Shown in pieces: positions 19,552-29,046 of a stretch of 64,000 bases of DNA. Source of the stretch: a bacterium. Lineage in GTDB: Bacteria; Margulisbacteria; Marinamargulisbacteria; GCA-2716485; JAYNIM01. A program made the position numbers and the translations under genes. The notes beneath the pieces are model-generated. The model was not told the origin of the DNA. It made no database searches and worked only from the letters and a program-made list of their open reading frames with translations. Each line of letters begins with the position of its first letter. Within the stretch, counting starts at the first letter, position 1. The DNA is taken from contig JAYNIM010000001.1 of NCBI GenBank assembly GCA_038109055.1, forward strand, positions 491,365 through 555,364, read 5' to 3'.

Positions 19552-20364
19552 CTATGTGCTTGTAGTTGTTAAATCAAATTCTTCATCTAATGATTCTAAT
19601 GAAATTGGATCTGCATCTAAAAAATCATTTTCTTCAAATAAATCTTCTTCAATACTATTTTCTATTAATTCCTCATTTGTACCTTTGATACTTTGCATAT
19701 TCTTTGTTTCTGTAAGCTTATTTAATTCTGTTGTGCTTTGAAAACTATCCTTACGTTCTTTATTTTGATAGGATTCTTCTCTGTTATTACTTTCTTCTTT
19801 GCTACCTACCTCTATCTCATCGTTTTCATAAAATTGCATATATAATGCGTTGAATATACTTTCATCTAAAGGCGTGTTTTTTACTTTAGTATTTAGTATT
19901 CTTGATTTTTCATTTTCAGAGTAATGTTTTAGAATATTTTCTTGTTCTTGAAGGTCTAATTTAGTCAAAAAAAAGGCGATTGTTTGTACCTGTTCATTTT
20001 TTAATATCTCGGCAATTTCACTGTAGCTTCTCTGTGACCTGTCTGGATGACTATCTGCTACCTCTAACAGGTCATCATCTTCTTCCGAAGTTTTTTCTTC
20101 TTCCTCTTCTTCCTCTATGTCATTTAAAAAATTGTCTTCCTGTATAAGACTCATATCTTCTGGTTGCTCTAGTGTAATATGATCTACTTCTTCAATAAAT
20201 TCTGCTATTAATTGGTTTAGCTCTTTTTGAGATGGCATTGGAGGTTGTTCTATTTTTAACAACCTAGTTAAAGTATCTTGCCGCATGTGCTTTAAAACAG
20301 CCTCTGCTTGATTACCTAAAACAGATACTATAACCTTTGCTTTTATATGATTTTCTAGTGTCAC
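19552..20364 (-). CDS. fliG: FliG-like protein (N and M domains only, acidic tail)
   Basis: KAKVIVSVLGNQAEAVLKHM (FliG-N); EILKNEQVQTIAFFL (EHPQ-like FliG-M); directly follows fliF. Confidence 0.7.
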   Translation of the reverse strand: MTLENHIKAKVIVSVLGNQAEAVLKHMRQDTLTRLLKIEQPPMPSQKELNQLIAEFIEEVDHITLEQPEDMSLIQEDNFLNDIEEEEEEEKTSEEDDDLLEVADSHPDRSQRSYSEIAEILKNEQVQTIAFFLTKLDLQEQENILKHYSENEKSRILNTKVKNTPLDESIFNALYMQFYENDEIEVGSKEESNNREESYQNKERKDSFQSTTELNKLTETKNMQSIKGTNEELIENSIEEDLFEENDFLDADPISLESLDEEFDLTTTST

Positions 20365-21854
20365 GTAAGTACCTCTTCTTTTAATAATTCTTCTAGAGCA
20401 GCTGCTATATGTTCTGGGTTTGATGTTGCTTTTTTCTTTAAGTCATCTATATTTCTTTCTTTTTGAATCTCTTCTTTTAGTTGTTCAAATTTAGTGACTT
20501 CGTTTTGCTTTTTATTCAAAGAGCTACTGCCCTTTTTTCTTGACTTTAAGAAAAAATAAACCAAAGTTAAGCCCATAGACAACATGCCTATAACACCCCA
20601 ACTTTCAAAATATTCAAAGATAGTTTTACTTTCATCTTTATAAAAAGGGGCTTTATTAAGAAAAATAATATCACGCCCATCTTGATAGCCTATAATTGCG
20701 GCTATGGTAGAAAACACCTCTATTTTTTTTGCATCATCCAGCACAATATCTTCGTTATATTCATCGACTATTATACTCACCGTTGTTCGTTTAATTTCGG
20801 CACTGTTACCGTCTTTTGATGCAGTAATTTCTGCATTTGCAGCTACCTTAAATGAATTTCTAGGAAAAACTCCAGCCAATTGTTTATTAATTTTACTTAA
20901 TATATTATTTTCAAAATTTTCTTTTATTGTGAACCATTGTTTAATATTCTCAAAATTTGGAAGTATTGGCTGCAATTCTTTTATTTCATCTGATTTTTCT
21001 TCTTTCTTTTTATCTAAGAGTCTATCTTTCTCAAAGACTTTTATTTTTTGTTCATTTTTTATTTCATCTAAAATACCATAGGACAACTCAGTTCCTTGTG
21101 TGTCTACAACTGTTATATTTTTAAGACTTAAGCTTTCTACGGCTTTTGCGACGAGCTGCATAATACTATAAACCATGGTTGTGGTTAATGTTTTACCAGG
21201 TGTTTTTCTAACCAAAATACTTGCTGTTACTGGGGGCTGTTTTGATATAAATAGACGCTCTTTAGGCATTACAATTTGAACTTTAGCATCTTCGATCATT
21301 TCCAAACTTGTAATGACTTTTTCGAGTTCTCCAGACAAGGCTCTTAAATAACGTACTTTCTTATCAAATTCTGTGACGCCTAAAGTTTGAGTATTGTCTA
21401 ATAACTCATAGCCTTTAACAGCACCTGAAGGCAAGCCCTTTGTTGCGAGTAATACCTTTGCAGTTTCTAATTTTTTACTATCGACTGATAAACTAAAATT
21501 CTTTCCTTTTTGTGCCAAGGTAAATGAAATATTTGCAAAGCTTAATTCTTTAATGACTTGTGAGACTTGTGTCGCTGGTAATTGTGGGTATAGAACCAGG
21601 TATTTTATTTTCTTATCCCGCTTGGTTTTTTTCTTTGTTTGAGATTGTGCCTCATTTTTCCCCTTATTTCCCTCTAACCCAATGTCATCATTATCTAAAT
21701 TAACATAAAATAATAGGCCTCCTATTATTAAGGCTGTCATAATAATGGCAGCCATCCATATATTTTTTTTATGAAATAACCTAGATGTTTTATCTTGTGT
21801 TAAGTTATTTAAATCTTCTTCTAAATCATCAATTATCAAATTTTCTTCTGCCAT
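20361..21854 (-). CDS. fliF: FliF-like MS-ring protein
   Basis: Two TM helices; GLPSGAVKGYELLD, RALSGELEKVI, AKVQIVMPKERLF, ITVVDTQG. Confidence 0.9.
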   Translation of the reverse strand: MAEENLIIDDLEEDLNNLTQDKTSRLFHKKNIWMAAIIMTALIIGGLLFYVNLDNDDIGLEGNKGKNEAQSQTKKKTKRDKKIKYLVLYPQLPATQVSQVIKELSFANISFTLAQKGKNFSLSVDSKKLETAKVLLATKGLPSGAVKGYELLDNTQTLGVTEFDKKVRYLRALSGELEKVITSLEMIEDAKVQIVMPKERLFISKQPPVTASILVRKTPGKTLTTTMVYSIMQLVAKAVESLSLKNITVVDTQGTELSYGILDEIKNEQKIKVFEKDRLLDKKKEEKSDEIKELQPILPNFENIKQWFTIKENFENNILSKINKQLAGVFPRNSFKVAANAEITASKDGNSAEIKRTTVSIIVDEYNEDIVLDDAKKIEVFSTIAAIIGYQDGRDIIFLNKAPFYKDESKTIFEYFESWGVIGMLSMGLTLVYFFLKSRKKGSSSLNKKQNEVTKFEQLKEEIQKERNIDDLKKKATSNPEHIAAALEELLKEEVLT

Positions 21855-21860
21855 AACTAC

Positions 21861-22439
21861 CTAAATTTGCATTGATATTAATTCTTTGAATGTTTGAGAT
21901 GCAGTTGAAATAACCGTGGTTGCAAAGCTTATTGCTAAGTTTAATTTTGTCGTTTCAATCGATACCTCCTCGATTGATACTTTCCCTTCTACATATTTTT
22001 GCATAAGGTCATTTACTCTAAATTCTAACTGGCTAACACTGTTTAATGATTTAACGGCTTGTTCACTAAAATACTGAAAAGGTGTGATCTCTAGTGCATG
22101 GTCAAAATTTAAATATTCTAATTTTTCCTCTTCTTTCGTTTCTGCATCAAATAGCTCTTTTGTTCTTTTTTTTCTATCTTGAATTGTTAAATTTGGATCA
22201 TTTGCAGTTGCTGCTTGTGCAATTAAGACATGTTGATTTAAGTTAATTGGGTTATTTTGTATTGTTACTTGTGGTAGTGGATTTTTTTCCTGAGTTTTAT
22301 TATCCATTATTCCATCTAACAATAACTTAAACTCATTTTTTATTTCTGGTTTTACGATATTTTGCGCAAAGGATGTTGCTGATGTTGTGGGGTTTACGTT
22401 GTTAAGAGGGTTTATATTAAGGGGACTTATATTACTCAT
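21861..22439 (-). CDS. fliE: FliE-like protein with long N-terminal extension
   Basis: C-terminal GKVSIEEVSIETTKLNLAISF...FKELISMQI; lies between flgC and fliF. Confidence 0.8.
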   Translation of the reverse strand: MSNISPLNINPLNNVNPTTSATSFAQNIVKPEIKNEFKLLLDGIMDNKTQEKNPLPQVTIQNNPINLNQHVLIAQAATANDPNLTIQDRKKRTKELFDAETKEEEKLEYLNFDHALEITPFQYFSEQAVKSLNSVSQLEFRVNDLMQKYVEGKVSIEEVSIETTKLNLAISFATTVISTASQTFKELISMQI

Positions 22440-22440
22440 A

Positions 22441-22896
22441 TTATTTCATTAACTCTATTGCACTTTGATACATTGATTTGCTAACTTTTAATGCGGTTAT
22501 GTTTGCCTCATATACGGCCTCTGTAAATGTTAATGTCATCATCTCATTAGGCAGATTAACATTTGGATAATAAAAATAACCATTTTCATCCGCTTGAGGT
22601 GCGGCTGGATCAAAATAACGCCCGAAAGGTTCTGTACTTCTTTTTATTCCAGTTACTTTTACCCCGTCTTTAAATTTTTCTAGTTGAATATATTTCTTTT
22701 GATAAGGTAATCCTGTTTCTTCGTCTTTTAAAGTATTTAAGTTTGCAACATTTTCTGCGATAATCATCATTTTTGTTCTCTGTGCTAAAATCCCCGATAT
22801 ATTTATAGAAAATGAATCATCTAAATTTGAAACTGCATAGACTGAGTATGATACGTATACTGTTATTATACATATAATTGCCGTTATTCTATTCAT
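22441..22896 (-). CDS. flgC: Rod protein FlgC homolog with Sec-type signal peptide
   Basis: SGILAQRTKMMIIAENVAN, PYQKK, DPAAPQADENGYFYYPNVN, YEANITAL. Confidence 0.92.
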   Translation of the reverse strand: MNRITAIICIITVYVSYSVYAVSNLDDSFSINISGILAQRTKMMIIAENVANLNTLKDEETGLPYQKKYIQLEKFKDGVKVTGIKRSTEPFGRYFDPAAPQADENGYFYYPNVNLPNEMMTLTFTEAVYEANITALKVSKSMYQSAIELMK

Positions 22897-23309
22897 TATT
22901 GTTTACCTAGTGTCACTACTTTTCTTAAATTCTCTACGCGTTTTTTATAAAGTGTATATAACGCTTGTTGCCGTTTGTTGTTTTCTGCAATTTTTCCCAT
23001 AAAATGTTCTATCATTACTTTCGAAAAGTATGCTTTATCTTCTGTTTCAACATTAAACAAGCGCTCTAATTCGGCTCTATCTTCTGGTAATAAAATTGGC
23101 CTAAATTTTGGTGTTGTGGCATTTGCTATGTTGTATGAATATATCGCATGTTTTTGGTTACTATATTTTATAGCACGCTCTAATACCATCCCTGTTGAAT
23201 CTTCAAGTATATGTCCTTTTGTTTTACTTTTTGCTATATCTAGTTTTTGTGCTAGTAAGGACGTAGTTAAACTTATAAATATAGCTATTACCAGTATTCT
23301 CGCTATCAT
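22896..23309 (-). CDS. flgB: Rod protein FlgB homolog with Sec-type signal peptide
   Basis: LERAIKYSNQKHAIYSYNIANATTPKF plus FlgB-type C-terminal helix; directly upstream of flgC. Confidence 0.82.
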   Translation of the reverse strand: MIARILVIAIFISLTTSLLAQKLDIAKSKTKGHILEDSTGMVLERAIKYSNQKHAIYSYNIANATTPKFRPILLPEDRAELERLFNVETEDKAYFSKVMIEHFMGKIAENNKRQQALYTLYKKRVENLRKVVTLGKQ

Positions 23310-23318
23310 ATTTTTTGT

Positions 23319-24044
23319 TTATATATAAATATCTTTTTCTTCTAATTCTAAATATCTCTTAATTAATTTTAACGCTTCCATATGGACTCTGCAAACTTTG
23401 CTTTTGGACACCTTTAATTTCTCTGCAACTTCGTTTTGTTTCATGTTACTTTGATAAATTAATTGTATAACTTCTTTCTTAGCTGATTCTAATTTATTCA
23501 CAATATTCCATATATTTGTTGTACTTTCAATATACGCTTCTTCTATATCTCTTCCACACGTATTGGCGGTAGAAAATTTCTCTAAATCGTTGGTATTTAG
23601 TAGATAGGATACGGATGACTGTGTCACGATCTCATTTAATGTTTTTTCAAAACTTTGTCTATTTGCTTTATTTTTATCGTCGAGTATATTCTCCGTAATC
23701 TCCATCATTTTTTCTTGTATATTTTCTCTATATCTTGCGTATTCAGCAGGATTCTTTTGTTTCCATTCCAACCTCAAATTATCCATTATCTGACCTTGAA
23801 TACGATAATATGCGTAGGTTTTAAAATTAGATTCTTTTTTTTCTTTGTATTGCACTTTCGCTTTAATCAAGCCTTCAATACCCCAACTGATTAAATCCTC
23901 TTTTTCAACACCTGAAGGTATTTTAGACTTCATAAATATTTTACTCGCAACTCCTTTAACTAGAATTAAATGGTCATCGATAAATGCTTGTGATACTTGC
24001 TGTTGTAATATCTCTTCTTTGCTATTCATATTTATGTTAGTCAA
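23319..24044 (-). CDS. fliA: FliA/WhiG-family sigma factor
   Basis: EDLISWGIEGLI, FKTYAYYRIQGQIMDNLR, region-4 QNEVAEKLKVSKSKVCRVH. Confidence 0.8.
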   Translation of the reverse strand: MTNINMNSKEEILQQQVSQAFIDDHLILVKGVASKIFMKSKIPSGVEKEDLISWGIEGLIKAKVQYKEKKESNFKTYAYYRIQGQIMDNLRLEWKQKNPAEYARYRENIQEKMMEITENILDDKNKANRQSFEKTLNEIVTQSSVSYLLNTNDLEKFSTANTCGRDIEEAYIESTTNIWNIVNKLESAKKEVIQLIYQSNMKQNEVAEKLKVSKSKVCRVHMEALKLIKRYLELEEKDIYI

Positions 24045-24672
24045 TTAATTTTTGTTTTGTTTTGTGTATATATATGATATCTCTTTCTTCATTATAATCT
24101 ATAGTATCAGATACGATTAAAAAAACAGATTCTTCTATTTTTTCATCTAAACTATTCTCTTGTGCTAATATACTTATACTCTTTTTTTGAATAGTGCTAT
24201 TATTTTTATTTAACTCTACTCTTGAGACTATTCTAAAGGATTTTTCTGGGAATGCTTCTCTCAACTTTCTTTTTACTCTATTGGATAAATTGTTTTCTAT
24301 ATGTTCTTTCCGTGAGAGTGATGCATCTTTGGGCAAAAATTTTTCCTCAAACTTTAATAAATCCATTTTTGCAAGTTTATCTGCCATTTCTTTAGCTAGC
24401 AGATCATTGATCATGTCACTTTGTGTCACATCTATATAATCGATATCTTCATCTATAAATATTTCCATTTTTTTAAAAGCAGGTTCCGTTAAAATCTTCT
24501 TGATAAAAAAAGACTGCATAAACTGGACTGCTTCTTTTCTTGTTCTGGGTTTTTTATTATTATACAAACTTGAAGAATAATGATTAGCCGCTAATGGTAT
24601 TCCTTCGTAACTCATTGATGGAATAGCATAACTAATAGCAATAATACCTATAATTATTATAATTTTGTTCAA
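24037..24672 (-). CDS. FlgJ rod-binding-like domain fused to a FliF-RBM3-like domain, with signal peptide
   Basis: KEAVQFMQSFFIKKIL...SDMINDLLAKEMADKLA directly downstream of flgI; C-terminus aligns by eye with this operon's FliF C-domain. Confidence 0.6.
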   Translation of the reverse strand: MNKIIIIIGIIAISYAIPSMSYEGIPLAANHYSSSLYNNKKPRTRKEAVQFMQSFFIKKILTEPAFKKMEIFIDEDIDYIDVTQSDMINDLLAKEMADKLAKMDLLKFEEKFLPKDASLSRKEHIENNLSNRVKRKLREAFPEKSFRIVSRVELNKNNSTIQKKSISILAQENSLDEKIEESVFLIVSDTIDYNEERDIIYIHKTKQKLID

Positions 24673-25727
24673 ATGATTTCAATGTTTGCTATCAGTGCGC
24701 CTGCTTCTTTTAGTGCTTGTATAATTGAAATTAAATCTCTTGGAGAAGCACCAATTTCATTTAAAGTATCTACTAAGCTTGATAGTGTTTCGTTTGATTT
24801 TAAATATACTAACTTTTTCTTCTCTTCATCAATTTCTAACTGATTTTGCTGATCTGATATTGCACCTGCTTGTGGTTCTGTAATTCGAATAGATACAGCC
24901 CCATGTGTCAAGGCTACAGGGCTTAAACGCACCATTTCTCCAATTACAATGGTACCTGTTCTTTCATTAATGACAATTTTTGCTGATTGGTCAGGCTTTA
25001 CTGAAATATTTTCTAATTTTGCAATGGTACTAATTAAATTTGCTGAATTCAAATCTGTTAATGGTATTTTAATTTGTCTAGCATCTAATGCTTTTGCACC
25101 TAAAAAGCCCTCATCATGGATGGCATTAACTGCACGATCTATAGTTATAAAATTTGAATCATTTAAAACAATGGAGATATTGTGCACATCTGTAAAGGTG
25201 ACGGGAACTTCTTTTTCTACAATGGCCCCATCTGTGATAATTCCAACTGTTGGTTTGTTTTTAGCATACATAATGGTACTTGAACGCTGTGCTGCACCTC
25301 CCACTACAACCGAACCTTGGCCAACAGCATAAACTCTCATATCAGCACCTTTCAAGGGGGTCATCAATAAGGTACCTCCATCTAAACTAGATGCATCTCC
25401 GAGTGCTGATACCGTTAGTGAAATCCGTTGTCCTGACTTTACAAATGCGGGTAGGGTTGCTGTCACCATCACGGCTGCCGTGTTTCGTATATTACCAACA
25501 CTACCTACTTGTACACCCATTTTAACTAATAAATTTCTCAGTGCAGTTGGTGTAAAAAAGGTATTTCGACTGTCACCAGTACTTTTCAATCCAACCACTA
25601 AGCCAAATCCAATTAATTGGTTATCTCTCATTTCTACAATTTTTGAAATATCTTTTAACCTTACTTCTACAGCAAAGCTTGCTGTAGTAAAGCTAAATAA
25701 TACTAGTAGTAACAATGCTCGTTTCAT
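24669..25727 (-). CDS. flgI: Flagellar P-ring protein
   Basis: VRLKDI, NQLIGFGLVVGL, AAVMVTATLP, GDASSLDGGTLLMTPLKG, INERTGTIVIG; ATG at 25727 preferred. Confidence 0.96.
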   Translation of the reverse strand: MKRALLLLVLFSFTTASFAVEVRLKDISKIVEMRDNQLIGFGLVVGLKSTGDSRNTFFTPTALRNLLVKMGVQVGSVGNIRNTAAVMVTATLPAFVKSGQRISLTVSALGDASSLDGGTLLMTPLKGADMRVYAVGQGSVVVGGAAQRSSTIMYAKNKPTVGIITDGAIVEKEVPVTFTDVHNISIVLNDSNFITIDRAVNAIHDEGFLGAKALDARQIKIPLTDLNSANLISTIAKLENISVKPDQSAKIVINERTGTIVIGEMVRLSPVALTHGAVSIRITEPQAGAISDQQNQLEIDEEKKKLVYLKSNETLSSLVDTLNEIGASPRDLISIIQALKEAGALIANIEII

Positions 25728-25729
25728 TT

Positions 25730-26338
25730 TTAAAATACCCAATTAAATATCCTACTTATTATTCCTGGATTCTGCTTGGCTGCAACTGGTCCCCCTCTAC
25801 CGCTTACTGAAACCTCAGCTTTTGCAATTTGATACGAAAAAATAGTATTCTTTGGAGTCACATCTGCAGGCCGCACAATCCCAGATACTCGAATAGTTTC
25901 GATGTCATGATTCACTTTAACCTTGTGTTCTCCCACTACAAATAAATTCCCGCTCTTTAACACTTCTGTCACAATTGCCGTTATAATTGCCTTTACGTTG
26001 CTTTTTCTCGTCGTTTGTCCATTGCCTTGATATCTATCACCCCCGCCTATAGAGATATCTCGTTTTTTCCTCACTCGTTCATTGCCTAATAAATTAGCCA
26101 CTTGATCCCAATTGTCTGCAAGTGATGAGGTTAGTGAGGTTGTTTTTCCTGAAGAGGTGCTCGCCTGTTGTACAGCGGAGGTGGATTCGGATACGTAGAT
26201 AGTAACGATATCCCCCACTGAAATTCTTCGTCGCGATGGTTGGTATATGCCTTCACTATAGGTTCTCCATAATGAATCTGCCCCAATAGATGTTGTTACT
26301 AAGATTAATAAACTAATCAATATAAATATTTTTTTCAT
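25730..26338 (-). CDS. flgH: Flagellar L-ring protein, no lipobox Cys
   Basis: ADSLW, VGDIVTIYVSE, VTEVLKSGNL, SGIVRPADV, SYQIA. Confidence 0.92.
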   Translation of the reverse strand: MKKIFILISLLILVTTSIGADSLWRTYSEGIYQPSRRRISVGDIVTIYVSESTSAVQQASTSSGKTTSLTSSLADNWDQVANLLGNERVRKKRDISIGGGDRYQGNGQTTRKSNVKAIITAIVTEVLKSGNLFVVGEHKVKVNHDIETIRVSGIVRPADVTPKNTIFSYQIAKAEVSVSGRGGPVAAKQNPGIISRIFNWVF

Positions 26339-27050
26339 CTATCACTTTTCCTTTTAATCGTTTTAGTGTTGATAATTTTGATGTTACCGGTATGTACCCA
26401 CCTATTTGACCATCCGCTAATGCTTGTCCATCAACTTTTATTTGCCCCCATTTTTTATTTATTAAAATTGATATAGGATCACCTTTTTGTATTGCTGGTT
26501 TTTCTTCTATGGCTAAATAATGTACCTGTGTATTTTTAGGAATACTACGTTTTGCTATTTTTCCTATCATTTCTTCCTTAGTAAATATATAATTCTGCAG
26601 GGTTGATAATTTTGAATAAATTAATTTTTCTTTCATGATTAAATCAGACTCTGTAATCATTTTACCTCGTTGAATCAAGTGCTTTGTGACAGGCATTTTT
26701 GTGGTTGCTTCTATTTTTAATAAAAGGGTCTGTCTTTCTAGAAGAGTCCCCTGCCGGTCATAGAAAAAAATCGGCTGTATTTGAGTCCCCAGTAAATCGT
26801 TGATTTTAGGGTCTGGACATTTAAAATAACTGGCTTTTTCAGGTATATCTAATTTTGTTAAATCAATTTTGAATGTCATTTTAAAGGTCATTAATTCTGC
26901 ATTTATATTTCCCAGAACATGCTCTAATTTTTGTCGATAGACAGTTCTGACTTCTTTTTTGATATCTGCTAGACTCACCGCAGCATGAATCGTATTTATC
27001 GCTAGACTCACAATCAAACTAATAATAAAAAAAAGCCTACTTAATGTCAC
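26313..27050 (-). CDS. flgA: P-ring assembly chaperone
   Basis: Signal peptide; SAF-like IQRGKMITESDL; C-terminal IQKGDPI...GQALADGQIGGYIPV. Confidence 0.85.
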   Translation of the reverse strand: MTLSRLFFIISLIVSLAINTIHAAVSLADIKKEVRTVYRQKLEHVLGNINAELMTFKMTFKIDLTKLDIPEKASYFKCPDPKINDLLGTQIQPIFFYDRQGTLLERQTLLLKIEATTKMPVTKHLIQRGKMITESDLIMKEKLIYSKLSTLQNYIFTKEEMIGKIAKRSIPKNTQVHYLAIEEKPAIQKGDPISILINKKWGQIKVDGQALADGQIGGYIPVTSKLSTLKRLKGKVIDEKNIYID

Positions 27051-27834
27051 TTCCAGCCTTTAGCATATCATCGGATGCTTTCATTGCTTTAATAACCGTT
27101 TCAAAGGAACGTTGACACATCAGCATTTCCATCATTTCAGAGATAATATCTACATTTGAAAATTCCAATGATCGTTGCCTGATAGACCCCATGCCCTGTT
27201 CACCCGGTATAATTAATTGTGGATCCCCAGAGCTTTCTGTTTCTTGCATTAAATTTTGGCCAATATCTTTTAAACCTTCTGGATTCATAAACTTTGCTAA
27301 GACCATCTGTCCAATTTCTTGTTGTTGAGTATCTCCATCTAATAAGGCAAAAATTCGGCCTTCTTGATTCACAATAATTTCTCTTGCTTCTAAAGGGATA
27401 GTTAATGGTGGATCTAAGGGATGTCCGCTAGAATTTAATACTCTTCCTTGACTGTCTACATGAAAATTTCCTGCTCGACTATAAGCGGCGCTTCCATCTG
27501 GCAATTGAAACTGAAACATACCATTCCCTTCGATTGCCATATCCATTTGCCTGTTTGTTACTTCGATTGTTCCAGTACTAAAGTTCTTTGTAATACCCAC
27601 GAACCGAACACCTTGACCAAACTCGATATATTTTTTTCTACGTTTGCTGCTACCTGTTTCTTCATCAGACTCCGTCACAGCTCTTTCAAAAATTAATGGA
27701 AACAAACTTTCCATCTCTAAGCGTCTTTCCTTATATCCTGGTGTTTGTGCATTTGAGATATTATTTGTAATAACCTGCATTTTTCGTTGAAACGAATATA
27801 ATGCTGATTTTGCCATATGTAATTGAGATAACAT
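27037..27834 (-). CDS. flgG: Distal rod protein FlgG
   Basis: VITNNISNAQTPGYK, DMAIEGNGMFQ, YSRAGNF, LEFSNVD; canonical N-terminus without signal peptide. Confidence 0.93.
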   Translation of the reverse strand: MLSQLHMAKSALYSFQRKMQVITNNISNAQTPGYKERRLEMESLFPLIFERAVTESDEETGSSKRRKKYIEFGQGVRFVGITKNFSTGTIEVTNRQMDMAIEGNGMFQFQLPDGSAAYSRAGNFHVDSQGRVLNSSGHPLDPPLTIPLEAREIIVNQEGRIFALLDGDTQQQEIGQMVLAKFMNPEGLKDIGQNLMQETESSGDPQLIIPGEQGMGSIRQRSLEFSNVDIISEMMEMLMCQRSFETVIKAMKASDDMLKAGSDIK

Positions 27835-27852: not shown

Positions 27853-28659
27853 TTAATTTGGTGCGGCAATTTGTGTCGCTGTATTGGCTGATCGTGCCAA
27901 TACTTTAAGAACCTTTGCATTTGATTGATACCCATTTGTTGCATAGGTTATATCTCCTACTAAGGCTTTTACTACATTATTTTCTTCTATATGACCTTGT
28001 ACAACTTTATAGTACTCAACCCCACTCAAAATTTCAGCCTCTTCTACTAGTACAAATACGGATCCATTCAGTGAATTGAGCTTTTGCATTTCTTTATAGG
28101 AGGCAAATACCGCTACTTTTATACGATCTACTTCTTCACCATCTACGTATATCATTCCAGATCGTGACACAACAACATCGCCTTTAGGCAAGTATATTGG
28201 CCCTTTATCACCTAATACGGGATAATTTCCGGCAACAGTGACTAAACGGTCACTCCCATCTCTCGTGAAGCGCCCATCTCGGGTATAACCCAGAGTTGTT
28301 TTTAATTGTATAACAAAAAAACCTTTACTCATCGCATCTATGTAAAAATCTAATGGTCTATGTGTTTCAACGACCGGACCTGCTCGCCAACGATAAAAAG
28401 GAATGGCATCTATTCGTTTCTCTCCATTCTTATCAATCATTCTTGAATTAAACGCGCCTGTTTCGATAAAGCCTGGTGTGTTTACATTCATGGTGTAAAA
28501 CAACCAATTACTCCACTGAATTTGAAAAGCCCTCATTGCTTGCATACTTCCATTAGCGGCAATATCTTGAATCTCACCATAATCCTCATAAGAAGAAAGG
28601 TTACTCGTTATGATAAGTAGACATACTATCAAGGTCTTTATTTTATTAATACCGTTCAT
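27853..28659 (-). CDS. flgF: Rod protein FlgF homolog with Sec-type signal peptide
   Basis: NVNTPGF, THRPLDF, GFFVI, YTRDGRF, VVQGHIEENNV; directly upstream of flgG. Confidence 0.85.
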   Translation of the reverse strand: MNGINKIKTLIVCLLIITSNLSSYEDYGEIQDIAANGSMQAMRAFQIQWSNWLFYTMNVNTPGFIETGAFNSRMIDKNGEKRIDAIPFYRWRAGPVVETHRPLDFYIDAMSKGFFVIQLKTTLGYTRDGRFTRDGSDRLVTVAGNYPVLGDKGPIYLPKGDVVVSRSGMIYVDGEEVDRIKVAVFASYKEMQKLNSLNGSVFVLVEEAEILSGVEYYKVVQGHIEENNVVKALVGDITYATNGYQSNAKVLKVLARSANTATQIAAPN

Positions 28660-28674
28660 TTATCTCTATTCTCA

Positions 28675-29046
28675 TTATTTTCTTTTTAGTTTCTTATTAA
28701 TCTTATTTCGTTTATCCGATAATTTTTCAAGTTGATACGCAAAGGCTAACACCTCTGCTATTATAGCATATAATTTTGATGGTATATGTTGATTCAATTC
28801 TAATTTAGACAACAAATTACTTAATACGGGATCTTCATACAGAGGTATTTTGTGATCTTCTGCAATATGTAAAATCATTTCAGCAATTGAGGCTTTACCA
28901 GATGCAACGATTTTTGGGGCCTTGTCTTTTTCAATATCATATTTTATTGCGACTGCTTTTAACTTTTCTTTTTTGGGTAGATTTAACTGATCAATACGTT
29001 TCTTAAAGTTGATCTTATGTTTCTTCTGATTCTCGTTTGCCATCAT
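28675..29046 (-). CDS. Stand-alone FlhB/EscU cytoplasmic-domain protein (FlhX/YlqH type)
   Basis: KAVAIKYD, APKIVASG, IPLYEDPVL, IPSKLYAIIAEVLAF. Confidence 0.9.
   Translation of the reverse strand: MMANENQKKHKINFKKRIDQLNLPKKEKLKAVAIKYDIEKDKAPKIVASGKASIAEMILHIAEDHKIPLYEDPVLSNLLSKLELNQHIPSKLYAIIAEVLAFAYQLEKLSDKRNKINKKLKRK

What the first reader, a model, noticed from the sequence alone, without database searches (positions are those of the whole stretch)
24037..24672. Fusion of signal peptide, FlgJ-like rod-cap domain and a duplicate of FliF's collar-less RBM3
Seen: C-terminal EHIENNLSNRVKRKLREAFPEKSFRIVSRVELNKNNSTIQKKSISIL...VFLIVSDTIDYNEERDIIYIHK aligns with FliF ENFENNILSKINKQLAGVFPRNSFKVAANAEITASKDGNSAEIKRTTVSII...VFSTIAAIIGYQDGRDIIFLNK. 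The N-half resembles the FlgJ rod-binding domain, in the flgJ position, with no muramidase. Inference: a periplasmic subunit that could co-polymerise with or stack on the S-ring and template rod assembly from outside. I know of no such fusion.
Basis: partly seen in the sequence, partly recalled or inferred. Interest (0 to 1): 0.8.

Follow-up and report, generated by a model that had tools for sequence, protein, structure and literature searches.

The report
FlgJ-type rod scaffold fused to FliF ring domain
A gene in the flgJ position of an uncultured marine bacterium joins an export signal, a FlgJ-like rod-binding domain and a fast-diverged copy of one ring-building domain of its own MS-ring protein FliF, a combination found in no other genome searched.

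Summary
ORF 24672..24037(-) encodes 211 aa.

- **C-terminal half:** residues 122-204 align to residues 311-401 of the window's own FliF (BLASTP 50.1 bits, E 9e-12; 0 of 2000 shuffles reach the score, z 14.4).
- **Fold:** modelled with an alignment of FliF RBM3 segments, it gives a confident alpha-beta-beta-alpha-beta fold (pLDDT 91). Its best solved matches are FliF RBM3 (Z 13.5-11.8). The strand 1-2 loop is 6 residues where Salmonella has the 107-residue beta-collar.
- **N-terminal half:** it has no Pfam hit itself. It belongs to a family of 104-135 aa proteins encoded right after flgI in relatives, and two of these pass Pfam's Rod-binding (FlgJ N-domain) threshold.
- **Uniqueness:** of 55 genomes of the class, only this one has a second RBM3 copy of this kind. 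The closest N-half relatives (47-55% identical) lack it.
- **Origin:** the copy branches with its own FliF (99/96) on a very long branch.
- **Reality:** a second strain and independent metagenome contigs carry the same fusion.

The function is inferred only. Most likely the protein is a Sec-exported rod scaffold docked on the S-ring through RBM3 contacts. I rate it a new domain-architecture variant of FlgJ, of moderate interest.

The parts
24037..24672 (-). Whole ORF, 211 aa plus stop: signal peptide + FlgJ-like domain + RBM3 copy
   Evidence: The same 211-aa protein occurs in a second strain (P0012). Contigs of runs X3 and X8 bridge the joint.
24610..24672 (-). N-terminal hydrophobic segment (res 1-21), read as a Sec-type signal peptide. 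TTG start overlaps the flgI stop (TTGA).
   Evidence: Sequence. A 4-nt start/stop overlap with flgI and a hydrophobic N-terminus, mostly with an A-x-A|Q site, are seen in orthologs. No SignalP run was possible. Records P0011/P0013 start at M20 instead.
24325..24555 (-). FlgJ-type rod-binding-like domain (about res 40-116)
   Evidence: A profile of 11 distant family members, built without the target, scores target res 1-116 at 71.6 bits. It also scores the Pfam-passing orthologs of G002 and G021. PF10135 hits the orthologs. Synteny is flgI-X-sigma-flgB-flgC.
24052..24312 (-). RBM3-type ring-building domain without beta-collar (about res 121-207)
   Evidence: sequence; AF2 pLDDT 91, a-b-b-a-b; best structural matches FliF RBM3, Z 13.5, rmsd 2.2 A over 97 residues
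20652..20924 (-). Parent segment: RBM3 of the window's own FliF (res 311-401), also without beta-collar
20361..21854 (-). fliF (497 aa)
   Evidence: PF01514 at 164 bits and TIGR00206 at 143 bits, on res 81-268 only; PDB FliF chains match
24669..25742 (-). flgI, directly upstream
   Evidence: PF02119 at 358 bits
23319..24044 (-). sigma-70 family (FliA-like) gene directly downstream, then flgB, flgC, fliE

Best explanation
Shown: this is a real, intact gene in the flgJ position of a basal-body operon (fliK-like, flhB-C-like, flgF, flgG, flgA, flgH, flgI, THIS, sigma, flgB, flgC, fliE, fliF, short fliG). Its product has a hydrophobic N-terminal segment, a domain of the FlgJ N-terminal (rod-binding) family, and a ~90-residue RBM3-type ring-building domain. 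The RBM3 domain arose by partial duplication of the organism's own fliF, about 3 kb away in the same operon. It happened in this lineage only and the copy then diverged very fast. Inferred: the protein is exported by Sec, so the folded RBM domain never has to pass the flagellar export channel. The RBM3 copy uses RBM-RBM contacts to dock the protein on the ring formed by FliF's own RBM3 domains. This holds the rod-binding domain next to the nascent rod, in a motor whose FliF has no beta-collar to contact the rod. I put about 0.85 on the architecture and origin and about 0.35-0.4 on the docking mechanism. The confidence given is for the whole statement.
For: Similarity to own FliF RBM3: E 9e-12; z 14.4, 0 of 2000 shuffles; 45.1 bits with the class profile. 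Fold: (pLDDT 91.0, pTM 0.80, H-E-E-H-E). In one search the top 14 rows are all FliF RBM3: Z 13.5-11.8, rmsd 1.9-2.2 A, 93-97 of 100 residues. The next unrelated rows are OsmC 9.5 and EscJ 9.0. In one search the top 17 Foldseek rows are all FliF. All 4 invariant columns of 30 FliF RBM3s (E126, R197, D198, I200) are kept, as are 12 of 29 columns at >=80% and 20 of 29 hydrophobic columns. Origin: the copy is sister to its own FliF at 99/96. Its best BLAST score is to own FliF, 51.2 bits against 39.3 for the next. Lineage-specific: with the RBM3 segment as query, 37 of 41 genomes match; every matching genome other than G000 has only its FliF, and G000 alone has a second hit. With the class profile, 50 of 55 genomes match. 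Only G000 has the target as an extra strong hit. The 8 true N-half relatives among 1.84 billion representatives are 105-147 aa without the C-half. N-half: PF10135 hits the syntenic orthologs, 2 above Pfam's cut-off (G002 26.5 bits, G021 25.1) and 5 weaker. 4 of 15 aligned members hit it. The family profile ties the target to them. Reality: a second strain has 10 substitutions and an intact frame. A 542-nt contig of X3 and a 192-nt contig of X8, from another study, span the joint. From papers: the Salmonella FlgJ N-domain is a rod scaffold and single-domain FlgJ is widespread (PMC8517470, passages). The RBM3 ring is 140 A wide, the collar 100 A, and the beta-insertion is residues 273-379 (10.1101/718072, passages).
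Against: The target itself has no Pfam or NCBIfam hit for FlgJ. hhalign of the family against E. coli FlgJ is not significant (E 0.2), although it picks the expected region. The fold model rests on an alignment made of FliF RBM3 sequences, so it partly assumes what it shows. The single-sequence model was poor (pLDDT 45) and drew a strand where the helix should be. The copy has lost 17 of 29 strongly conserved FliF RBM3 positions and sits on a branch of 3.91 changes per column, so the ring interfaces may be gone. Relatives build the same basal-body gene set without this domain, so it is not essential to the machine. No experiment or prediction here shows any binding. The signal peptide is read by eye, and a public annotation starts at M20 without it.
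Confidence: 0.4

Rival explanations
1. The RBM3 copy no longer contacts FliF but oligomerises with itself. It forms a separate periplasmic ring around the proximal rod, with the FlgJ-like domains pointing inward. This would resemble RBM proteins of the sporulation channel or accessory flagellar rings.
For: RBM domains commonly form homo-oligomeric rings. Isolated Salmonella RBM3 (with collar) forms rings (PMC8786727, passages). The fold is well kept, while many surface positions differ from FliF.
Against: No test of self-association was possible. Much of the buried area in the Salmonella RBM3/collar ring comes from the collar, 77000 A^2 (10.1101/718072), and the collar is absent here. The stoichiometry of a rod cap is expected to be small.
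Confidence: 0.15
2. The soluble RBM3 copy acts in trans on MS-ring assembly. It could nucleate, cap or time the oligomerisation of FliF, and so couple ring completion to rod initiation.
For: In Salmonella, RBM3 added in trans releases the RBM1 block on RBM2 oligomerisation (PMC8786727, passages). The gene lies in the same operon as fliF.
Against: Relatives lack any such factor. It gives no reason for the link to a rod-binding domain. It is untested.
Confidence: 0.15
3. The appended domain is a near-neutral by-product of a partial gene duplication. The protein works as an ordinary single-domain FlgJ-like scaffold and the tail does nothing.
For: It is found in one lineage only. The branch is very long. 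Between the two strains the C-half changed more (4 of 94 residues) than the mature N-half (1 of 93).
Against: The frame is intact in two strains. The 4 changes are conservative (V/I, S/N, T/N, Q/K) and three of them lie in or next to loops. All 4 invariant FliF RBM3 residues and 20 of 29 core hydrophobic positions are kept despite about 70% sequence change. A decaying tail would be expected to lose these and pick up stops.
Confidence: 0.2
4. It is an artefact: a mis-assembly, or a frameshift joining two genes.
For: The genome is a 22-contig draft at 93% completeness.
Against: The C-half is only 28-30% identical to fliF, so it cannot be a mis-joined fliF read. Records with the same architecture exist (P0012 and P0013 from other sources). 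Contigs from two studies span the joint without gaps.
Confidence: 0.02

Closest known systems
Single-domain FlgJ (rod-binding domain only; e.g. Borrelia burgdorferi FlgJ, as described in PMC8517470)
   Same: Small protein of the Rod-binding family (through orthologs). It is encoded after flgI and has no peptidoglycan hydrolase domain. One separate SLT-domain ORF exists in the genome (G000:C1:488449-488817).
   Different: It carries an extra C-terminal RBM3 domain. It has a Sec-type N-terminal signal where canonical FlgJ is a flagellar type III substrate (the latter is recalled knowledge). The target itself is too diverged for PF10135.
Dual-domain FlgJ of Salmonella / E. coli (Rod-binding + glucosaminidase)
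   Same: Same gene position (E. coli flgI-flgJ overlap). An N-terminal scaffold domain is followed by a second, unrelated C-terminal domain.
   Different: The second domain is a ring-building motif, not an enzyme. The known plasticity of the FlgJ C-terminus concerns lytic domains (PMC8517470 citing Nambu 2006; I did not see the Nambu paper).
FliF RBM3 / S-ring (Salmonella 6SCN, 6SD1, 6SD3; Vibrio 8Z5V)
   Same: Same fold, with best structural matches at Z 13.5. Significant sequence similarity to own FliF RBM3. The invariant E, R-D-x-I are kept.
   Different: It has no beta-collar insertion, no RBM1/RBM2, no transmembrane helices and no FliG-binding tail. It is a soluble periplasmic domain on another protein.
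Chlamydiaceae short FliF (Bergeron 2016, PMC4768692, passages read)
   Same: A precedent for a FliF whose last periplasmic domain is a plain ~70-residue RBM without the SpoIIIAG-like insertion.
   Different: That is FliF itself, fused to FliG. It is not a copy of the domain moved onto a rod protein.
SpoIIIAG / SpoIIIAF and injectisome SctJ (EscJ, PrgK) RBM domains
   Same: [quoted passage not shown]
   Different: Clearly weaker matches than FliF RBM3, and no sequence similarity was found.

Membership tests
FlgJ N-terminal rod-binding domain (Pfam PF10135) | Match to PF10135 at or above its gathering score (25.1 bits) | tested here: not met
   The target has no hit at E<=10. Syntenic orthologs do hit: G002 26.5 bits and G021 25.1 bits over the cut-off, and G024, G004, G039, G001, G008 below it.
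FlgJ N-terminal rod-binding domain (Pfam PF10135) | Homology of the target's N-half to proteins that do pass PF10135 | tested here: met
   A profile of 11 family members, built without the target and its 3 close relatives, scores the target at 71.6 bits (res 1-116). It scores the G002 ortholog at 74.2 and the G021 ortholog at 47.5.
FlgJ N-terminal rod-binding domain (Pfam PF10135) | Gene directly downstream of flgI in a rod/ring gene cluster | tested here: met
   Same order in 11 relatives' loci and in E. coli.
FlgJ N-terminal rod-binding domain (Pfam PF10135) | Binds rod proteins and is needed for rod completion | not testable with these tools
   Needs pull-downs or genetics.
Dual-domain FlgJ (muramidase type) | C-terminal glucosaminidase (or other lytic) domain | tested here: not met
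   No Pfam or NCBIfam family on the C-half. Its fold is an RBM.
FliF RBM3 domain | Significant sequence similarity to FliF RBM3 | tested here: met
   The profile including it hits PDB FliF chains first, but weakly (9yh6 E 0.026).
FliF RBM3 domain | alpha-beta-beta-alpha-beta ring-building fold, closest to solved RBM3 | tested here: met
   pLDDT 91; Z 13.5, rmsd 2.2 A, 97 aligned residues; FliF rows stand 2-4 Z above the rest. Caveat: the alignment used for folding consisted of FliF RBM3s.
FliF RBM3 domain | Long beta-insertion (collar) between strands 1 and 2 | tested here: not met
   The loop is 6 residues in the model, against 107 residues (273-379) in Salmonella. Own FliF and all 30 aligned FliFs of the class also lack it.
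FliF (MS-ring protein) as a whole | Two transmembrane helices, RBM1-RBM2 (PF01514), FliG-binding C-tail | tested here: not met
   No PF01514 hit. The sequence ends 8 residues after the RBM. It is a domain copy, not a FliF.
FliF RBM3 domain | Forms or joins a ring | not testable with these tools
   Needs biochemistry or EM.

The most novel reading that the evidence does not exclude
In this lineage the rod is not capped from inside the export channel. It is built with help from a Sec-exported adaptor that is itself part of the basal body. The RBM3 copy inserts into or stacks on FliF's collar-less RBM3 ring, and the FlgJ-like domain bridges the gap of roughly 30 A to the rod, taking over the contact normally made by the beta-collar. 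Together with Sec-type signals on FlgB, FlgC and FlgF and a second, collar-bearing mini-FliF next to a full FliG and MotAB, this would mean a flagellar motor whose periplasmic core is assembled by a different route and from a different set of ring proteins than any described.
Probability: 0.15. Interest if true: 0.8.

Novelty: new variant of a known kind. Interest (0 to 1): 0.55.

Why it matters
FlgJ is the least understood cap of the flagellar axial structure, and how it is held at the growing rod is not known. A natural fusion of its rod-binding domain to a copy of the MS-ring's own ring-building domain suggests where such a scaffold can sit relative to the S-ring. It also gives a simple pair of domains whose binding to FliF and to rod proteins can be tested in vitro. 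It is a dated example of how ring-building motifs spread: a partial intra-operon duplication, fusion to a neighbouring gene, and rapid divergence with the fold kept. The same process has been proposed for the origin of injectisome ring proteins (PMC4768692). The value is limited because the fusion is confined to one uncultured lineage and its relatives do without it.

Tried and rejected
- **Complex prediction:** FliF RBM3 (A5) with the target's C-half (A4) returned 'no answer', score 0.00, and the controls were not run. This is no evidence either way.
- **Single-sequence AF2 of the whole protein:** pLDDT 45, unusable.
- **Mosaic alignment (A3)** of N-half relatives plus FliF segments for a full-length fold: MAFFT put the FliF segments on the N-half, so I dropped it. 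No confident model of the N-half exists as a result.
- **ESM Atlas:** feature hits (HD_assoc_2, 0.95) and structure rows (best SpoIIIAF, TM 0.38/0.47, under the bar) rest on a poor model, so I did not use them.
- **The search for homologous proteins (near lengths):** only the protein itself.
- **Collection scans:** three found nothing, two of genome contigs and one of metagenome contigs, and one alignment was too variable to scan with. I therefore could not see the DNA context of the closest N-half relatives P0002-P0004.
- **hhalign of the N-half family against E. coli FlgJ:** E 0.2, not significant.
- **hhalign of the RBM3 profiles against E. coli FliF:** only the post-collar half aligned (370-430), E 0.007/0.005, with low probability.
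- **Sequencing runs:** no RNA holder listed, so nothing can be said on expression.
- **FlgM (anti-sigma) reading of the N-half,** suggested by the sigma gene downstream: rejected. Only PF10135 recurs among family members, and the N-terminus is a signal-like segment with no cytoplasmic domain.
- **Lineage name:** an earlier AI note calls the chromosome Margulisbacteria-type. I did not test this. Literature searches on that name plus flagella gave nothing relevant, and neither did Dependentiae.

Full report
**What is there.** On the minus strand the window carries a tight operon. Pfam/NCBIfam scans read it as:
- a FliK-like protein (30260..29043)
- an FlhB C-terminal-domain protein (29046..28675)
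- FlgF-like (28659..27853)
- FlgG (27834..27037)
- FlgA (27050..26313)
- FlgH (26338..25730)
- FlgI (25742..24669)
- the ORF in question (24672..24037, 211 aa)
- a sigma-70 family protein (24044..23319)
- FlgB (23309..22896), FlgC (22896..22441), FliE (22439..21861)
- FliF (21854..20361, 497 aa)
- a short FliG (20364..19552)

The ORF starts with TTG inside a TTGA overlap with the flgI stop. It ends 8 nt inside the first possible start of the sigma gene.

**The similarity to FliF is real.**
- BLASTP of the ORF against the window's FliF gives one significant segment: target 122-204 against FliF 311-401, 50.1 bits, E 9e-12, 30% identity.
- A Smith-Waterman score of 130 is reached by none of 2000 shuffles of the C-half (mean 40.1, sd 6.25, max 81, z 14.4). 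The N-half shows nothing, scoring 32 against a shuffle mean of 36.
- A profile of 30 FliF segments from the class scores the ORF at 45.1 bits, E 1.4e-11.

**The FliF segment is RBM3, and it lacks the collar throughout the class.**
- PF01514/TIGR00206 and the solved Salmonella FliF cover only residues 81-268 of this FliF, which is RBM1-RBM2.
- The profile of residues ~303-408 finds PDB FliF chains first, though weakly (9yh6 E 0.026). It hits in two pieces that correspond to the two halves of RBM3.
- hhalign places its second half on E. coli FliF 370-430, directly after the collar (E 0.007).
- In Salmonella the beta-insertion that forms the collar is residues 273-379, between the first two strands of RBM3 (10.1101/718072, passages read).
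- In all 30 aligned FliFs of this class that loop is about a dozen residues. 'Collar-less' is therefore a property of the whole class, not of the copy.
- A plain RBM in place of the SpoIIIAG-like domain has a precedent in the short Chlamydiaceae FliF (PMC4768692, passages read).

**The fold of the C-half.**
- Folded alone without an alignment, the protein gave a useless model (pLDDT 45.1).
- Residues 112-211 were then folded with the 30 FliF RBM3 segments as alignment. This gave mean pLDDT 91.0 and pTM 0.80.
- The order of elements is helix 115-140, strand 146-154, strand 161-171, helix 177-190, strand 199-205 in protein numbering. This is the ring-building motif.
- The top 17 Foldseek rows are all FliF RBM3/collar structures (E 7.6e-4 to 4.7e-3).
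- On the second look the top 14 rows are FliF of Salmonella and Vibrio, at Z 13.5-11.8 and rmsd 1.9-2.2 A over 93-97 of 100 residues. OsmC scores 9.5, EscJ 9.0 and PrgK 8.5.
- Caveat: the alignment that drove the model consists of FliF sequences.
- The copy keeps all four invariant columns of the FliF set (E126, R197, D198, I200). It keeps 12 of 29 columns conserved at 80% or more and 20 of 29 conserved hydrophobic columns.

**The N-half.**
- The ORF itself matches no Pfam family at E<=10 and no NCBIfam family above cut-off. PF10135 (Rod-binding) finds nothing in this genome.
- The N-half does have relatives. An exhaustive HMMER search of 1.84 billion representatives found 10 proteins at E<=0.001. 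These are the protein itself, one low-complexity false hit (P0006), and eight proteins of 105-147 aa that align to residues ~2-118 only. Three of them are 47-56% identical.
- In 41 genomes of the same class, 25 gave a match. N-half matches fall in small frames and C-half matches fall in ~500-aa frames, which are FliF.
- In the 11 relatives' loci I read, the small ORF (104-135 aa) lies between flgI and the sigma gene, followed by flgB and flgC. In most of them it has the same 4-nt overlap with flgI.
- PF10135 hits seven of these syntenic ORFs, two above Pfam's gathering score: G002 at 26.5 bits and G021 at 25.1. 4 of 15 aligned members hit it.
- A profile built from 11 distant members, without the target and its three close relatives, scores the target's residues 1-116 at 71.6 bits. 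It scores the two Pfam-passing ORFs at 74.2 and 47.5 bits.
- hhalign against E. coli FlgJ picks the expected region (FlgJ 72-107) but is not significant (E 0.2).
- I therefore file the N-half as a diverged member of the FlgJ N-domain family by transitive homology and gene position, not by a direct match.
- It is a single-domain FlgJ type, which is well known (PMC8517470, passages read). One SLT-domain ORF exists elsewhere in the genome.

**The signal.**
- Residues 1-21 (MNK, then a run of 14 hydrophobic residues, then PSMS) look like a Sec signal.
- Most orthologs have clearer ones ending in A-x-A before Q. The orthologs in G021 and G024 have none.
- I had no signal-peptide predictor, so this reading rests on the sequence and on recalled rules.
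- Two public records of the protein start at M20 and omit it (P0011, P0013). The conserved start/stop overlap with flgI argues for the long form.

**The fusion is lineage-specific and real.**
- With the FliF RBM3 segment as query, 37 of 41 genomes match. Every matching genome other than G000 has only its FliF; G000 alone has a second hit, the ORF.
- With the class profile over all 55 genomes of the class, 50 match. Extra hits occur only in G000 (the ORF, and a third protein described below) and weakly in G011.
- None of the N-half relatives carries the domain.
- In a tree of 30 FliF RBM3 segments plus the copy, the copy is sister to its own FliF (ultrafast bootstrap 99, SH-aLRT 96). Its terminal branch is 3.91 changes per column, against a median of 0.32. 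The other very long branch (L044) did not attract it.
- The best BLAST score is also to its own FliF, 51.2 bits against 39.3.
- So a piece of fliF was duplicated within the operon, joined to the 3' end of the flgJ-like gene near residue 117, and then changed fast.
- The same 211-aa protein occurs in a second strain with 10 substitutions: 5 in the signal, 1 in the mature N-half, and 4 conservative ones in the C-half (P0012/P0013).
- A 542-nt contig of run X3 (0 differences) and a 192-nt contig of run X8 from another study (3 differences) span the joint. Mis-assembly is excluded for practical purposes.

**How it most likely works (inference).**
- The protein reaches the periplasm by Sec, so a folded ring-building domain is compatible with it.
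- RBM domains bind each other side by side. In Salmonella, isolated RBM3 forms rings, and RBM3 added in trans acts on RBM1-RBM2 (PMC8786727, passages read).
- The closest partner for a diverged RBM3 copy is the RBM3 ring of FliF. Docking there would hold the FlgJ-like domain, attached by a linker of about 8 residues, at the inner rim of a ring that has no collar to reach the rod.
- In Salmonella the RBM3 ring is 140 A wide and the collar 100 A. A ~90-residue domain could span that difference.
- I put about 0.35-0.4 on this. The rest goes to a self-made ring, a trans-acting assembly factor, and a tolerated but useless tail.
- Against any essential role: all relatives lack the domain.

**Context that changes the picture of the machine (outside the finding).**
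- The genome has one FlhA and one FliP on another contig. No flagellin N-domain hit was found. Only FlgG and FlgC hit Flg_bbr_C.
- The class profile also hit a 319-aa ORF at G000:C1:38152-39111 (28.6 bits, E 1.8e-6). This ORF has a transmembrane helix, an RBM3-like first half, an insertion of about 105 residues where the collar would be, a second half, a second transmembrane helix, and a tail resembling FliF's FliG-binding helix.
- That ORF is followed by a FliG with a FliG_C domain (23.6 bits, cut-off 23.3), then MotA and MotB.
- Pairwise BLAST of this ORF to E. coli FliF, to own FliF and to the target is not significant. As a single query it finds only weak matches in 5 of 54 other genomes. 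One of these falls in a relative's FliF, and G011's similar ORF is not among them.
- If confirmed, FliF's functions are divided between two proteins in this class. The torque-bearing FliG is then not missing but encoded elsewhere.

**Novelty and verdict.**
- I found no paper that holds both 'FlgJ' and 'ring-building motif' and describes such a fusion: 2 papers hold both terms and neither concerns it by title and abstract. Searches on FlgJ domain structure gave nothing either. A search on FliF RBM3 paralogs listed 2 papers and gave only Bergeron 2016.
- The library misses many subscription papers, and I saw no supplements.
This is a new domain-architecture variant of FlgJ, found in one lineage of uncultured bacteria whose related records carry marine or estuarine labels.

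Noticed in passing
window 20361-21854 (-), and FliF genes in loci L016-L044: All 30 aligned FliFs of this bacterial class have an RBM3 with only about a dozen residues between strands 1 and 2, so no beta-collar. The RBM3 segment is found once per genome in 50 of 55 genomes.
   Followed up: partly
L046:2653-6000 (= G000:C1:38152-41499); similar in L047:1617-3954 (G011): A second cluster holds four genes. The first is a 319-aa two-TM protein with an RBM3-like domain split by a ~105-residue insertion and a FliF-like C-tail. It is followed by a FliG carrying FliG_C (PF01706 23.6 bits), then MotA and MotB. This suggests FliF and FliG functions are split over two gene sets.
   Followed up: partly
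window 22896-23309 (FlgB), 22441-22896 (FlgC), 27853-28659 (FlgF-like), all minus strand: These rod proteins begin with Sec-signal-like hydrophobic segments, as does the FlgJ-like protein. FlgG, FliE and the FliK-like protein do not. The FlgB and FlgC orthologs read in relatives of the order show the same. Canonical rod proteins are type III substrates without such segments (recalled). One literature search found nothing on this.
   Followed up: partly
whole genome G000: No Flagellin_N hit was found, and only FlgG and FlgC hit Flg_bbr_C. One FHIPEP (FlhA) and one FliP lie on contig 2 at 189-194 kb, spaced as in a fliPQR-flhBA cluster. The genome is 93% complete, so absence is not shown.
   Followed up: partly
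window 24613-24615 (M20 of the ORF): Two public records of this protein (P0011, P0013, 192 aa) start at the internal ATG and so omit the signal-like segment. The TTG start in the TTGA overlap with flgI matches the 4-nt flgI overlap read in five relatives' loci.
   Followed up: yes
window 21861-22439 (-): FliE is 192 aa. The FliE domain covers only residues 124-192, and an N-terminal extension of about 120 residues has no family.
   Followed up: no
G000:C1:488449-488817 (-), about 2.5 kb before the window start: This is the only SLT (lytic transglycosylase) domain ORF found in the genome (265-aa frame, 61.8 bits). It is a candidate partner for a FlgJ without an enzyme domain.
   Followed up: no
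window 19552-20364 (-): The short FliG has a long acidic, low-complexity C-terminal part instead of FliG_C. An earlier report of the scan has already treated it.
   Followed up: no
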